Source: the human T2T-CHM13v2.0 reference genome, Homo sapiens
Reading direction: 5' to 3' (one strand)
Assembly: GCF_009914755.1 (NCBI RefSeq)
Contig: NC_060928.1
Length of the DNA: 64,000 nucleotides
Part shown: one piece after another, positions 49,732-63,052 of the stretch
Layout of the letters: each line of letters opens with the position of its first letter
How positions within the stretch are numbered: position 1 is the stretch's first letter
Notes under the pieces: model-generated
What the model was told of the DNA's origin: nothing
Database searches by the model: none
The model's input: only the letters and a program-made list of their open reading frames with translations
Program-made: the position numbers and the translations under genes

Positions 49732-50257
49732 ATGTCTACTCGCGCCCCGATGCCCGCCGCCCATTCTCGGGAGGATCCGCCCGCGGTGACTGCTGAGAGG
49801 GAGTCGCTGTTGGCCGCGGCGAACCGGCCGGCCGAGCAGCCGCCCCCGCCCGAATGTGAGGGCAAAGAGGCGGCGAGGGAGGAGAGGGCCGCGGCCGCCA
49901 CTAGCGCTGGGGCGCGGGGAGAGCCGTCGCCGGCGCTGGTGCTGGGACGCAGCGTGCCCCAGGCGGCTGTCCCCGTGAGGCCCCTGGCGCTGCACCTGGC
50001 GCACAAGGCGCGTGGGCCCGGGGGCCCTTTCGGCGGGGAGCCGCCACCGCCACCGCCGCCGCCGTCGCCGTTGCCGCCGTTGCTGCGGGATCCGCCGGCC
50101 GAGGACGCCCGGGAAGAGGTGGCAGCTGGCCCTGCGGAAAAGCGGCAGCCGCCGCTGCTGCCGCCTAAGGGAAATCCCTGGACCAAAAAGCCTCCCCAGC
50201 ACCTGTCCCCAGACACGACAGGTCCGCCACCGCCCCCGCTGGAAACCCTGGAGGCAG
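49732..50257 (+). CDS. LARP1B: Putative coding alternative first exon of LARP1B (MSTRAPMPAA...PPKGNPWTKK...LETLEA)
   Basis: ATG with A at -3, 175 open codons, GCAG|gtctgt phase-1 donor in frame with exon 62519, LARP1-like PPKxNPWTK motif. Confidence 0.7.
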
Positions 50258-50807
50258 GTCTGTGGTTGCTCTGCGTTGGGCACTGGCAGGGTGCGGGCAG
50301 GGGCGACTTGCGGGACTTGCCGGCGCGTGGCGGCGGTAGCGGGCACCAGGCCCGGGTAACGGCAGGCCTCCCCTCCCTGTCAGTCGGAGGTAATTTGTTC
50401 CAAGGTGTCATTCACTCTGCCTATTTACAGACATGGGCATCTGGGAAGGGAGCGGCAGGAAGAGGTGGGACCTCAGGTTCTCCTTGCCTGATGGGGGCAC
50501 GGAGGTGGTAGCTTGGCGGCGCATCCCTGCTGGCGCGGTTGCGATTGTGTTTTGTCCCCAGTGTTAGTGACTTGGGAAAGTAGCTAACTTTAGATACTGC
50601 AGTGCTTCGTATGGGAAAGTTTTGGTAGACTTTTTTTTTTTTTTTTTTTACATAAAAGGATTGAAGCAAGTCAGAGCAAGGGGATTTATTCGTAAGTGGA
50701 AGCGCGATTGTAGTCTTTTGTGAAATAAGATGAAAAAAGGTTTTCAAAACACTGCTGAGCAGTCATATTAAAAATGAGACTTTAAATGTGGTTTTTAAAG
50801 TGCTTTA

Positions 50808-50961
50808 TGGGGGGAGGGGGGAGGGATAGCATTAGGAGATATACCTAATGTTAAATGACGAGTTGATGGGTGCAGCACACCAACATGGCTGCACATGTAT
50901 ACATGTGTAACCTGCACGTTGTGCACATGTACCCTAAAACTTTAAGTATAATTAAAAAAAA
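50808..50961 (+). mobile_element. 5'-truncated L1PA 3' end
   Basis: ggatagcattaggagatatacctaatg..., perfect 12-bp TSD taaagtgcttta (50796-50807 / 50962-50973). Confidence 0.92.
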
Positions 50962-53307
50962 TAAAGTGCTTTAAGTTATAAGTGTGCTGGAAAATAATTG
51001 AAATAGGATAGTTGACATGCGAGCGTGGATTGCACGTTAGGTAAATGGTTTTCTAACATTGTCAGCTCTCCTTCCCTTTAGAGGAGATAAGATTATGCCA
51101 CTATATTTGAATGCTGACCAATGCTGTATGGCCGTCGGTGCTTTATTTTGATTGTAGTAACTGCAACTTAAGAAAGTAAAAATGGGCCGGCGCGGTGGCT
51201 CACGCCTGTAATCCCAGCACTTTGGGAGGCCGAGGCGGGCGGATCACCTGAGGTGAGGAGTTCGAGACCAGGCTGGCCAATATGGCGAAACCCCGTCTCT
51301 ACTAGAAATACGATCATTAGCCAGGCGTGGTGGCGGGCGCCTGTAATCTCACCTACTTGAGAGGCTGAGGCAGGGAGAATCGCTTGAACCCGGGAGGTGG
51401 AGGTTGCAGTGAGCCGAGATCGCGCCACTGCACTCCAGCCTGGTCGGCAGAGTGAGACCCACTCTCAAAAAAAAAAAAAAAAAAAAAAAAAAAAAAAGTT
51501 AAAATGGAAATAAAAACCATGACAAAAAGCAGTATCTGGCCGGGCGCGGTGGCTCACGCCTGTAATCCCAGCACTTTGGGAGGCCGAGGCAGGTGGATCA
51601 CCTGAGGTCAGGAGTTCAAGACCATCCTGACTAACATGGAGAAACCTTGTCTGTACTATAAATACAAAATTAACCTGGCGTGGTGGCGCATGCCTGTAAT
51701 CCCGGCTACTGGGGAGGCTGAGGCAGGAGAATCGCTTGAACCCGGGAGGCAGAGGTTGCAGTGAGCCGAGATCGCGCCACTGCACTCCAGCCTGGGCAAC
51801 AGGAGCGAAACTCCGTCTCAAAAAAAAACACAAAAAAACAAAACCGTATCTTTCTAAATTAAGTTGTAAATGACTTGAACTTTTTATATGCAAATGACAG
51901 CTGTTTACTTGCAAGTCTTCATTTTTATTTAAAATTAAAGGTTAGCAGCAGAACAAGAAATATTTGAGCGTGTTTACTGGCTTGTGAGGATCAAATGCGA
52001 TGAAGAGGTGGTATAAATGTAAGGCGATTGGCTGTGCGCGGTGGCACACGCCTGTAATCCCAGCACTTTGGGAGGCCGAGGCGGGTGGATCACCTGAGGT
52101 CAGGAGTTCGAGATCAGCCTGGCCAACATGGCGAAACCCCGTCTCTACTAAAAATACAAAAATTAGCCGGATATGGTGGTGCGTGCCTGTAATACCAGCT
52201 ACTCAGGAGGTTGAGGCAGGAGAATCGCTTGAACCCGGGAGACGGAGGTTGCAGTGAGCCAAGACTGAGCCACTGTATTCCAGCCTGGGTGACAGAGCAA
52301 GACTCAGTCTCAAAAAAAAAAAAAAAAAAAAAAAAGTACGGTGATTGTTACAAGCACCCATTATGTTATGTTAACATTTCTTCAGAGGAACTCTCCAAAG
52401 AGGGAGATATGTGTTGAGTTAATTCATTCATTTGCCTTTGCACAGAAATACTCCTCATTAATTGTTGATAAATTTTGACACTTGCAGAAAAAAAGTTTGC
52501 TCTGGATTTAATATTGGCATAATTCCTTCCTCGCTATAAAGAGCTGTTTGTTTACTCCTATTACTAACTAAAGAGAACATGGTTAAGTGAAGACCTCATA
52601 AAGTTTTTCTTTTTTTTCTTTTTTAAAGCCCAGTGGCAAGCACTCTAAAATTTAGCAAAGAAAGAAAACCCTAGTGAATCATCTTATTTGCTGTTTCACC
52701 TCTCTACTTCTAGACTTACAGACAATTAAGTGAATTACCAAGTAGGAACTCTTTGTTGATCATAAAACCAGTATCATAGATTTTAAAACTTCGAAGCCAT
52801 ACATGGTAGTGTGTGCCTGTAGTTTTAGCTCCCTGGGAGGCTGAGGCAGGAAAAATCAGTTTTGCCCAGGAGTTTGAGGCTGTAGTGTCCTGTCATAGTG
52901 CCTGTGAATAGCCACTGCATTCTAGCCTGGGCAATATAGCAAGACCACGTTTAAAATAATAATATTAATAATAATAATAATGATAATAGAACTTTAAAAA
53001 CTGTCAAGGTAAGCCTTGGGAACTTTAATTGCAAATGACCTGTGAAAAATATTTAACAGTTAAGCTATTGGTGCCTTCATTCTCCAGTCTTCACTGGAGA
53101 TTAAGAACACTGTGATACTAGTTGTATGGTATGGTTCATGGAAATTTCAGTTTTGCTGTTGTCTTGTGTAGGCAACTCTTTCTGTCTTTGGATGGAATCC
53201 ATTCTGCACTGGCAGGAAGACCATCTTTCAGACCTGGCATAGTGTAGTAATAGTGTAGTAACCATGGTCTCTTCCCAACACTGACTCTGCACTGTTCTCC
53301 CACAATT

Positions 53308-62518: not shown

Positions 62519-62577
62519 AATTCGGTTCCCTCAAAATTATAAAGGCAGGAAAGCTCAAGACAAAGAAATCCAACAAG
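62519..62577 (+). CDS. LARP1B: LARP1B exon 2 (5' UTR in the short form; EFGSLKIIKAGKLKTKKSNK in the extended form)
   Basis: ttctttag| acceptor, AAG|gtatgt donor, 59 nt, open in frame with the next exon. Confidence 0.8.
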
Positions 62578-62992
62578 GTATGTCTTCATAGGAAATAGTT
62601 CTTAACTGTATTGATTTTTGAAAATTGAGGCTAAGAACTCTTAGGTTATTATAAGTGTATTTTTCTTCTAATTGTATTATTGGTATTAGATTAAAGTTAA
62701 TATTATGGAAAATCATAACCTTTATCCAAATCTCTATATATGCCTTTGTTATCATGTATAACTCAATTTAATGTTATTAAATAGTGGTGAAAGTTTTATC
62801 ATAAGATTAAGCCATTCTTATTTCAAAATGTTCTATTGTTTGCAGAAACTTTTTGATTAATTTGGCAGATGCCTGCATATAACTGAATATAAATGATTAT
62901 TTAAAACTCCTTTCACTTTTAGAAAATGTTTTTTTCCTGCTTAAAATTTCTAAAAGTAATTTCAGACCTAACACTTATTTGTTACTTCTTAG

Positions 62993-63052
62993 GCTAGTGA
63001 TTTCAGTGATATGGAGAATTGGCCAACACCAAGTGAATTAGTGAACACTGGA
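62993..63052 (+). CDS. LARP1B: LARP1B exon with the commonly annotated start (ASDFSD-MENWPTPSELVNTG; ATG at 63011)
   Basis: cttcttag| acceptor, GGA|gtgagt donor. MENWPTPSELVNTG recognised as the LARP1B N-terminus. The gene continues beyond the window. Confidence 0.9.

What the first reader, a model, noticed from the sequence alone, without database searches (positions are those of the whole stretch)
49732..63052. Hidden 201-aa N-terminal extension of LARP1B encoded by a CpG-island exon and the '5' UTR' exons
Seen: ATG 49732 (acgATG, A at -3) opens 175 codons to a GCAG|gtctgt donor at 50257. Splicing to 62519-62577 and 62993 stays in frame with no stop: ...PPLLPPKGNPWTKKPPQHLSPDTTGPPPPPLETLEA-EFGSLKIIKAGKLKTKKSNK-ASDFSD-MENWPTPSEL. 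Recalled: the usual LARP1B protein starts at MENWPT, and the long LARP1 isoform reads PPPKVNPWTK...EHSAPAKVVRAAVPKQRKGSKVGDFGDAINWPTPGEI. The motifs (PPKxNPWTK, basic patch, DFxD..NWPTP) are colinear, so the annotated Met falls in the middle of a conserved motif. Inference: ancestral full-length LARP1B has a Pro/Ala-rich N-terminal arm, and promoter choice switches between long and short proteins. It may already exist as a predicted isoform.
Basis: partly seen in the sequence, partly recalled or inferred. Interest (0 to 1): 0.85.

Follow-up and report, generated by a model that had tools for sequence, protein, structure and literature searches.

The report
Long N-terminal form of LARP1B
Human LARP1B can encode a protein 201 residues longer at its start than the standard one, and this extra arm is the old, conserved beginning of the protein that gene models of other mammals already include but published work on LARP1B has not used.

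Summary
ATG 49732 opens 175 codons plus one base up to the donor at 50257. Joined to 62519-62577 and 62993 onward, this gives 201 codons with no stop before the annotated Met at 63011.

An open frame is weak evidence here, because the 75-83% GC island also holds open frames of 470 and 394 codons on the minus strand. The case rests on four other results:
- **Conserved motifs.** NPWTK, a basic patch and DF-x-D-x-x-NWPTP are colinear in LARP1B and LARP1 from hagfish to mammals.
- **Exon phases.** The first three coding exons have the same phases in human LARP1 and LARP1B.
- **Reading frame.** The frame holds in 33 eutherian sequences of 19 different lengths, and is lost just past the donor.
- **Retrocopy.** An intron-less copy on chr4 at 66.78 Mb preserves the exact 50257|62519 junction.

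The annotated Met is a eutherian substitution inside the motif. It is M in 14 of 109 proteins, all eutherian or primate-like, and mostly Ile elsewhere.

The RefSeq exon table points to a choice of donor within one start cluster, not a choice of promoter. Only the last 60 or so residues of the arm are ancestral.

Long forms are already predicted for pig, whales and bats. The papers I read list only 914, 512 and 358 aa.

The parts
49318..49731 (+). 5' leader of the long-first-exon transcript models, about 80% GC, with no ATG
   Evidence: Hub exon table; one search found no ATG in 49318-49731; one search gives the GC profile.
49388..49445 (+). Region holding the two proximal donors, after 49387 (CGG|GTAAAG) and after 49439 (CAG|GTGAGG, used by MANE). 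Using either one removes ATG 49732 as part of intron 1.
   Evidence: sequence; hub exon table (49293-49387, 49303-49387, 49350-49439).
49732..50257 (+). Coding part of the long first exon: 175 codons plus the first base of a split Glu codon
   Evidence: Frame kept in 24 of 30 related ORF fragments and in 33 eutherian sequences. Present in predicted LARP1B isoforms of other mammals.
49951..50040 (+). Residues 74-103 (SVPQAAVPVRPLALHLAHKARGPGGPFGGE), the best conserved therian block. Its function is unknown.
   Evidence: mean 0.95 identity to human over 33 eutherian sequences. A recognisable counterpart occurs in the marsupial P0044.
50040..50083 (+). Imperfect (GCC)n repeat encoding the poly-Pro tract, which is the length-variable part of the arm
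   Evidence: residues 104-140 have a mean gap fraction of 0.29.
50173..50187 (+). NPWTK motif (residues 148-152)
   Evidence: N invariant and P, W, T at 90% or more in 33 vertebrate LARP1 and LARP1B sequences.
50258..50263 (+). Distal donor GTCTGT, matching the MAG|GTRAGT consensus at 7 of 9 positions
   Evidence: The junction is preserved in the retrocopy. In related ORFs the frame stops or shifts just after this point.
62519..62577 (+). Exon 2 (59 bases), annotated as 5' UTR in MANE. It encodes (E)FGSLKIIKAGKLKTKKSNK, the basic patch.
   Evidence: It is the counterpart of LARP1 coding exon 2, which is 62 bases in the same phase.
62993..63010 (+). First 18 bases of exon 3, annotated as 5' UTR. 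They encode ASDFSD, the first half of the DF-x-D-x-x-NWPTP motif.
   Evidence: D and F at 90% or more, and the D before the Met invariant.
63011..63052 (+). Annotated start codon and the rest of exon 3 (MENWPTPSELVNTG)
   Evidence: Hub table. Met at this position occurs only in eutherian or primate-like LARP1B: 14 of 109 proteins.

Best explanation
The stretch 49732-50257, exon 2 and the first 18 bases of exon 3 together encode the original N-terminal arm of LARP1B. This arm is the counterpart of the arm encoded by exons 1-3 of the long LARP1 isoform. Transcripts from the CpG-island start cluster can splice early, at 49387 or 49439. ATG 49732 is then lost with intron 1, and the first AUG left is 63011, which gives the 914-aa protein. 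Alternatively they read on to the weaker donor at 50257. Then 49732 is the first AUG and the protein is 201 residues longer, about 1115 aa. The arm is predicted to be disordered. It carries three short conserved motifs: NPWTK, a Lys-rich patch, and DF-x-D-x-x-NWPTP-x-E. The short form became possible only in eutherians, where the residue two places before NWPTP changed to Met. The short form therefore begins in the middle of the third motif and lacks the other two. Shown here: the frame, the homology, the exon phases, the frame conservation, and past use of the junction. Inferred: present use of the distal donor in human tissues, translation from 49732, and any function of the motifs, which most likely bind a partner or RNA.
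For: Anatomy. Homology: in 25 aligned N-termini the motifs are colinear in LARP1B and LARP1 from hagfish to mammals. In a 33-sequence alignment N143, D197, W201, P202, T203, P204 and E206 are invariant, and M1, P138, P140, P144, W145, T146, A181, K191, D194 and F195 are conserved at 90% or more (pig numbering). Non-eutherian LARP1B proteins are mostly about 940-1165 aa. They have I, A, F, L or N where eutherians have Met: of 109 proteins the residue is I in 70, A in 16, M in 14, T in 3, F in 2, L in 2 and N in 2, and all 14 with M are eutherian or primate-like. Exon structure: human LARP1 exon 1 is 145 codons plus one G, exon 2 is 62 bases ending AAG, and exon 3 starts VGDF. LARP1B has 175 codons plus one G, 59 bases ending AAG, and ASDF. 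Frame: 24 of 30 related ORF fragments align in one frame from Met 1 to residues 169-175. After the donor, 10 of 24 stop within 5-15 codons and 5 shift frame. The 33 eutherian sequences have 19 different lengths. Junction: the retrocopy at chr4:66785378-66788221 has the long exon 1, exon 2 and exon 3 contiguous with exact junctions. Predicted long isoforms exist in pig (1068 aa), Physeter (1130), Myotis (1075) and Saccopteryx (1024). AlphaFold2 gives pLDDT below 50 for nearly all of residues 1-343 of the pig long form.
Against: No expression or translation data for human tissue could be examined. The distal donor GTCTGT matches the consensus less well than the MANE donor GTGAGG. MANE Select and every paper I read give 914 aa as the full length. 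Open frames are cheap in this island. The related ORFs were found by similarity to this frame, so species with broken frames would be under-represented. Two unnamed relatives are broken: P0009 shifts frame near 50037 and has no Met 1, and P0011 shifts frame in exon 2. Either could be a retrocopy or a true orthologue. No orthologous DNA was available, so dN/dS was not computed. A retrocopy shows past germ-line expression, not present use.
Confidence: 0.8

Rival explanations
1. The arm is an evolutionary relic in humans. It was coding in the ancestor, but human cells now make essentially only the 914-aa protein. Transcripts reaching 50257 would be rare splicing by-products, and the frame would stay open only because GC-rich DNA seldom makes stop codons.
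For: The proximal donor CAG|GTGAGG fits the consensus better than CAG|GTCTGT. MANE uses 49439 (hub table). Reviews and primary papers list only 914, 512 and 358 aa. Long-read data from two cell lines reported only NM_018078, NM_178043 and NM_032239 (passages). Open frames of 355-470 codons occur by chance in this island.
Against: The human frame, Met 1 and all motifs are intact. A sequence 95% identical (P0140) and Saguinus (P0141, 87% identical) are intact too. The frame is kept across 19 length variants and is lost right after the donor. RefSeq lists at least 8 models with this exon (hub table).
Confidence: 0.17
2. It is a chance open frame in a CpG island with no coding history, and the resemblance to LARP1 is coincidental.
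For: Three other frames of the island are equally open. Pfam finds nothing in the 175 residues.
Against: The motifs are invariant across vertebrates in both paralogues. The exon phases are identical to those of LARP1. Predicted proteins of many species run through this exon.
Confidence: 0.01
3. In addition to, or instead of, ATG 49732, part of the arm is made from the MANE mRNA itself by non-AUG initiation. The 167-base MANE 5' UTR has no in-frame stop and no ATG.
For: One search shows the frame is open from the 5' end of the MANE transcript. One search finds in-frame TTG 49361, GTG 49409 and CTG 49412, each with G at -3.
Against: There is no evidence of such initiation. A short open GC-rich leader is expected by chance. 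Such a product would still lack NPWTK.
Confidence: 0.05

Closest known systems
Long isoform of human LARP1 (LI-LARP1, 1096 aa; Schwenzer et al. 2020, PMC7928056, passages read)
   Same: The first exon lies in a CpG island, encodes a disordered arm ending in PPPK-x-NPWTK, and ends in phase 1 on a split Glu. Exons 2 and 3 encode the basic patch and DF-x-D-x-x-NWPTP. A long and a short N-terminal form exist, and the literature was long unsure which is canonical.
   Different: According to that paper, LARP1 uses two promoters with two different first exons, each with its own AUG, and the short form keeps exons 2 and 3 as coding sequence. In LARP1B the RefSeq models differ in the donor used within one start cluster. 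The short form starts at a Met inside exon 3, so it also loses the basic patch and half of the third motif.
Predicted long LARP1B isoforms of other mammals (pig A0A4X1VGV6, 1068 aa; Physeter isoform X6, 1130 aa; Myotis myotis X9, 1075 aa; Saccopteryx X4, 1024 aa)
   Same: They have the same start (MSAR.../MSTR...), the same conserved blocks, and the same junction ...LE(A)|E-x-x-x-x-K-I-I-K-A-G-K. Identity to the human exon-1 translation is 61-75%.
   Different: These are automatic models and none was tested experimentally. No human full-length counterpart appeared in the protein collections searched.
LARP1B of non-mammalian vertebrates (for example Anolis G1KL47, 1049 aa; Amia X1, 1104 aa; Xenopus laevis X2, 1042 aa)
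   Same: An N-terminal arm starting MS..., then NPW(T/S)(K/R), the basic patch and DFSDITNWPTP.
   Different: They have no Met before NWPTP, so the arm is constitutive. The region before NPWTK does not align with the therian Pro/Ala-rich part.

Membership tests
N-terminal arm of the vertebrate LARP1/LARP1B family | PPK-x-NPW(T/S)(K/R) motif | tested here: met
   Human residues 144-152, PPKGNPWTK. N is invariant and P, W, T are at 90% or more in 33 sequences.
N-terminal arm of the vertebrate LARP1/LARP1B family | Lys/Arg-rich patch followed by DF-x-D-x-x-NWPTP-x-E, 43-71 residues after NPW | tested here: met
   Human KIIKAGKLKTKKSNKASDFSDMENWPTPSEL. NPW to NWPTP spacing is 56 in human. In the stored proteins carrying both motifs it is 43-57 in most and reaches 71 in squamates, leaving out P0072, which carries an inserted stretch.
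N-terminal arm of the vertebrate LARP1/LARP1B family | Exon structure: exon 1 ends in phase 1 on a split Glu; exon 2 is about 60 bases ending AAG; exon 3 starts (A/V)(S/G)DF | tested here: met
   LARP1B 526, 59 and 60 bases. Human LARP1 436, 62 and 66 bases.
N-terminal arm of the vertebrate LARP1/LARP1B family | Continuity with a La motif and DM15 (LARP1 HEAT) region downstream | tested here: inconclusive
   The human downstream exons lie outside the window. In the pig long form Pfam finds La at 368-424 and LARP1_HEAT at 834-982. The human gene's downstream exons are seen on C4.
Expressed alternative protein isoform (human) | Transcripts with the 50257|62519 junction | tested here: inconclusive
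   The hub table lists first exons ending at 50257 but not their partners. A retrocopy preserves the exact junction, which proves past germ-line use. Present-day read counts cannot be obtained with these tools.
Expressed alternative protein isoform (human) | Translation from ATG 49732 (ribosome footprints, peptides) | not testable with these tools
   No ribosome profiling or proteomics data are available. Full-text searches for the motif strings found 0 papers.
Sequence under purifying selection as coding | Frame preserved across indels, and lost outside the exon | tested here: met
   There is an ascertainment caveat, and dN/dS was not computed for lack of orthologous DNA.

The most novel reading that the evidence does not exclude
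The 1115-aa form is the functionally complete LARP1B, and the 914-aa MANE protein is a eutherian invention. It was made possible by a change to Met (mostly Ile elsewhere) inside the DF-x-D-x-x-NWPTP motif together with early splicing of the first exon. If so, published functional comparisons of LARP1 and LARP1B may have used a protein lacking two family-wide motifs and half of a third. These include the weak mTORC1 binding of FLAG-LARP2 (PMC8034618, passages). The passages read do not state which isoform that construct encodes. The missing arm could then explain part of LARP1B's apparent lack of LARP1-like activity.
Probability: 0.2. Interest if true: 0.6.

Novelty: already known. Interest (0 to 1): 0.35.

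Why it matters
LARP1B is the little-studied paralogue of LARP1, a major regulator of ribosomal-protein mRNAs. Every paper I read treats 914 aa as its full length. If the long form is made in some tissues, then constructs, antibodies and isoform-specific knock-downs should take it into account. The three conserved motifs of the arm would also become candidates for a shared, still unassigned function in both LARP1 and LARP1B. It also shows that 'UTR' conservation can simply be coding conservation of another isoform. The gain is modest, however. Annotation pipelines already model the exon, and nothing here shows that the long protein is abundant in humans.

Tried and rejected
- **ORF length.** Rejected as evidence, because the minus strand has longer open frames.
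- **Profile search.** The exon-1 translation alone did not reach LARP1 in a phmmer search. It gave 13 hits, none a LARP1, and one (P0012) an unrelated repetitive protein. The LARP1 link came from alignment and exon structure instead.
- **P0010 and P0007.** I first read P0010 as a spliced transcript of the gene and P0007 as a broken orthologue. Both turned out to belong to the chr4:66.78 Mb retrocopy: P0007 is 97% identical to it and P0010 91%.
- **chrX copy.** An older LARP1B-like copy on chrX was examined for its first exon. Nothing scored above shuffled controls, so it is uninformative.
- **Pfam.** No family matched the arm.
- **Structure.** The prediction gave no ordered element in the arm.
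- **Literature.** Searches for LARP1B with 'N-terminal extension', PhyloCSF, promoter, first-exon or start-site terms, and for the motif strings, found nothing on a long form. Passages of PMC11470178, the dual-coding preprint and 10.1101/2023.05.22.541712 did not bear on it. PMC13600778 is held only in part, and the held part has no mention of LARP1B. Supplements were not opened, so lists of start sites or novel peptides there could mention LARP1B.
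Full report
**1. The observation**

The window shows ATG at 49732-49734 in the context gggACGATGt. From there 526 bases run to 50257, which is 175 codons plus one G, and the donor CAG|GTCTGT follows. Exon 62519-62577 is 59 bases. Exon 3 starts at 62993 and the annotated ATG is at 63011.

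Joined by coordinates in a script, the three pieces give 215 codons with no stop, and the annotated Met is codon 202. There is no ATG in 49318-49731, so 49732 would be the first AUG of the RefSeq models whose first exon is 49318..49326-50257 (hub table).

**2. Is it more than chance?**

Not by length. The island is 75-83% GC. Stop-to-stop frames of 355 codons on the + strand (49444-50511) and of 470 and 394 codons on the minus strand overlap the same DNA. GC by codon position is 0.80/0.65/0.79 in the ORF and 0.79/0.875/0.78 just upstream, which is only a weak coding hint. Everything below therefore rests on comparison with other sequences.

**3. Relatives of the exon-1 translation**

A phmmer search of 1.84 billion representative proteins gave 13 hits at E of 0.001 or better. 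Twelve are mammal-like ORFs and one (P0012) is an unrelated repetitive protein.

A word-based search among longer proteins gave 9 hits. They include predicted LARP1B long isoforms of pig (A0A4X1VGV6, 1068 aa), Physeter (X6, 1130), Myotis myotis (X9, 1075), Saccopteryx (X4, 1024), Mesoplodon (608), Urocitellus (444, marked low quality) and a mis-named Castor protein.

A search among proteins of similar length gave 26 hits, nearly all unnamed single-exon ORFs that read through the donor. The two named ones are a Saguinus 'hypothetical protein' and a Neomonachus 'predicted GPI-anchored protein 58'. No human or ape full-length long form appeared. That says nothing about current RefSeq, which the hub table shows has at least 8 models with this exon.

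**4. Deep homology**

Searching with residues 140-480 of the Physeter long form returned 538 proteins, of which the best 120 were listed. Non-mammalian LARP1B proteins are mostly about 940-1165 aa, longer than the human 914.

In an alignment of 25 N-termini, three elements are colinear from hagfish to mammals in both paralogues:
- EAPPPK(E/V)NPWT(K/R)
- KV(I/V)(K/R)AGK followed by a basic run
- DF(S/G)D-x-x-NWPTP-x-E

In a 33-sequence full-length alignment, N143, D197, W201, P202, T203, P204 and E206 (pig numbering) are invariant. M1, P138, P140, P144, W145, T146, A181, K191, D194 and F195 are conserved at 90% or more, on a par with La-motif residues.

**5. The annotated Met is a eutherian novelty**

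Among 109 stored proteins with the NWPTP-type motif, the residue two places before it is I in 70, A in 16, M in 14, T in 3, F in 2, L in 2 and N in 2.

The 14 with Met are pig, two Physeter isoforms, Mesoplodon, Myotis, Saccopteryx, Urocitellus, Ictidomys, Marmota, Castor, Smutsia, Trichechus, Macaca and the unnamed primate-like P0010. The marsupial Dromiciops has DFSDITNWPTP together with a therian-type arm (HGVPQAPVAVKPL...LAHKA, PPKENPCTKK).

So non-eutherian LARP1B must start upstream, and the short form became possible only after this change to Met.

**6. Exon structure**

The window's own genome could be searched. The comparison with human LARP1 on C5 is:

| Exon | LARP1 | LARP1B |
|---|---|---|
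| 1 | 436 bases from its ATG (145 codons + G), donor CAG\|GTGGGT | 526 bases (175 codons + G) |
| 2 | 62 bases, ends AAG\|GT | 59 bases, ends AAG\|GT |
| 3 | 66 bases, begins VGDF | 60 bases, begins ASDF |

Phases are identical, and the split codon is Glu in both. The LARP1B '5' UTR' exons 2 and 3 are thus the counterparts of LARP1 coding exons 2 and 3. The stretch 49732-50257 is the counterpart of the first coding exon of the long LARP1 isoform described by Schwenzer et al. (PMC7928056, passages).

**7. Frame conservation with an internal control**

Thirty related ORF fragments were compared with the human DNA by tblastn. Twenty-four align in the ORF's frame from Met 1 (or from upstream) to the donor. 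All 24 align to human residues 1 through 169-175, with 1-5 in-frame gap blocks each.

Just past the donor the pattern changes. Ten of the 24 end within 5-15 residues, and five (P0005, P0008, P0145, P0150, P0154) switch to another human frame.

Thirty-three eutherian exon-1 translations have 19 different lengths, from 147 to 178 aa. The flanking blocks nevertheless stay in frame. Residues 74-103 are 95% identical to human on average and residues 141-160 are 80%.

One caveat applies. These sequences were found by similarity in this frame, so broken orthologues are under-sampled. No orthologous DNA was available for dN/dS.

**8. A fossil of the junction**

P0007, which I first took for a broken orthologue, is 97% identical to human C4:66785941-66786570. 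In that locus the following window pieces lie directly one after another:
- the long first exon (window 49318-50257), 80% identity
- exon 2, 93% identity
- exon 3, 95% identity

The junctions are exact at the base level, and the next exon follows in turn. Homology begins at about window 48880. Downstream exons are 92.5-94% identical and also contiguous. CpG count falls from 129 to 65 in the exon-1 part.

This is a processed retrocopy of a LARP1B mRNA that used the 50257 donor. By inference from about 6% divergence outside the island, it is tens of millions of years old. P0010 is the same retrocopy in another primate, 91% identical to it against 78% to the gene.

It proves that the proposed mRNA existed in a germ line. 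It does not show present use.

An older copy on chrX carries exons 2 and 3, but its first exon is not recognisable.

**9. Remaining counter-evidence**

P0009 is unnamed and not human. It is 69% identical to the gene and 60% to the retrocopy. It lacks Met 1 and shifts frame near 50037. P0011, also unnamed, follows the exon 1-2 junction but shifts frame inside exon 2. Either may be a retrocopy or a true loss in some lineage.

The distal donor matches the MAG|GTRAGT consensus at 7 of 9 positions and the MANE donor at 8 of 9. This consensus is recalled, not computed.

**10. Mechanism**

The hub table puts the long first exons at 49318-49326, MANE at 49350 and two others at 49293 and 49303. This is one broad start cluster with donors at 49387, 49439 and 50257.

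Early splicing discards ATG 49732. The MANE 5' UTR (167 bases) then has no ATG, so 63011 is used. Late splicing keeps 49732 as the first AUG behind a leader of about 410 bases at about 80% GC.

This is donor choice rather than promoter choice, although the retrocopy's parent began further upstream. The MANE leader also has no in-frame stop and holds in-frame TTG, GTG and CTG codons. That is a speculative route to partial extensions.

**11. What the arm is**

Pfam finds nothing in it. AlphaFold2 on the pig long form with the 33-sequence alignment gives pLDDT below 50 for nearly all of residues 1-343. The La motif, by contrast, scores about 90.

It is therefore a disordered arm with short linear motifs. 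I found no assigned function for them: 0 papers contain the motif strings, and the 2025 review does not discuss this region. Binding of a partner or of RNA is the most likely role, by inference.

**12. Literature and novelty**

Burrows 2010, Schwenzer 2020 and the 2025 review list LARP1B forms of 914, 512 and 358 aa only. I read passages of each, not whole texts.

Jia 2021 compared FLAG-LARP2 with LARP1 and found weak mTORC1 binding (passages). The construct's length is not given in the passages I read.

Predicted long isoforms are already in RefSeq and UniProt for other mammals, and the exon is in human RefSeq models. So the isoform as such is already known to annotation. The following appear not to be in print in the library searched:
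- the eutherian origin of the short start
- the exon paralogy with LARP1
- the retrocopy evidence

Supplements were not opened.

**13. Verdict**

The feature is real and conserved, it is already modelled, and its use in humans is unproven.

Noticed in passing
own genome C4:66785378-66788221 (loci L008, L005, L014, L017): Processed retrocopy of LARP1B carrying the long first exon, exons 2 and 3 and later exons without introns. It has several stop codons, and CpG is halved in the exon-1 part. Its 5' end corresponds to window position about 48880, which implies a parent mRNA that read through donors 49263, 49387 and 49439.
   Followed up: yes
own genome C23:132528744-132531048 (L021) and C1:206170255-206170586 (L020): Two further decayed LARP1B-like intron-less copies. 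The chrX one keeps the non-primate form of exon 2 (AELSSPKIIK), so it predates the primate change to EFGSLKIIK. Its first exon could not be recognised.
   Followed up: partly
window 49350-49439, 62519-62577 and 62993-63010: The MANE 5' UTR has no ATG and no in-frame stop. In-frame TTG 49361, GTG 49409 and CTG 49412 each have G at -3. All four alternative first exons (ending at 49263, 49387, 49439 and 50257) end with a G that completes GAA (Glu) with exon 2.
   Followed up: partly
window 62181-62297, minus strand: Rfam match to Metazoa_SRP (72.8 bits against a threshold of 70). This is most likely an Alu-type repeat about 220 bases upstream of exon 2, not an SRP RNA gene.
   Followed up: no
window 50040-50083: Imperfect (GCC)13 repeat encoding the poly-Pro tract. 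This is where eutherian sequences differ most in length, so it may vary in length among people.
   Followed up: no
proteins P0024 (Physeter X9), P0025 (Ictidomys X5), P0026 (Marmota): Other predicted LARP1B forms join different first exons, each with its own Met, to exon 2. Exon 2 is therefore modelled as coding in several isoforms of other mammals.
   Followed up: no
window 48967-50411, minus strand: Open frames of 470 and 394 codons lie antisense to the LARP1B first exon. They gave only low-identity (23-36%), low-complexity matches in tblastn and are taken as by-products of the GC content.
   Followed up: partly
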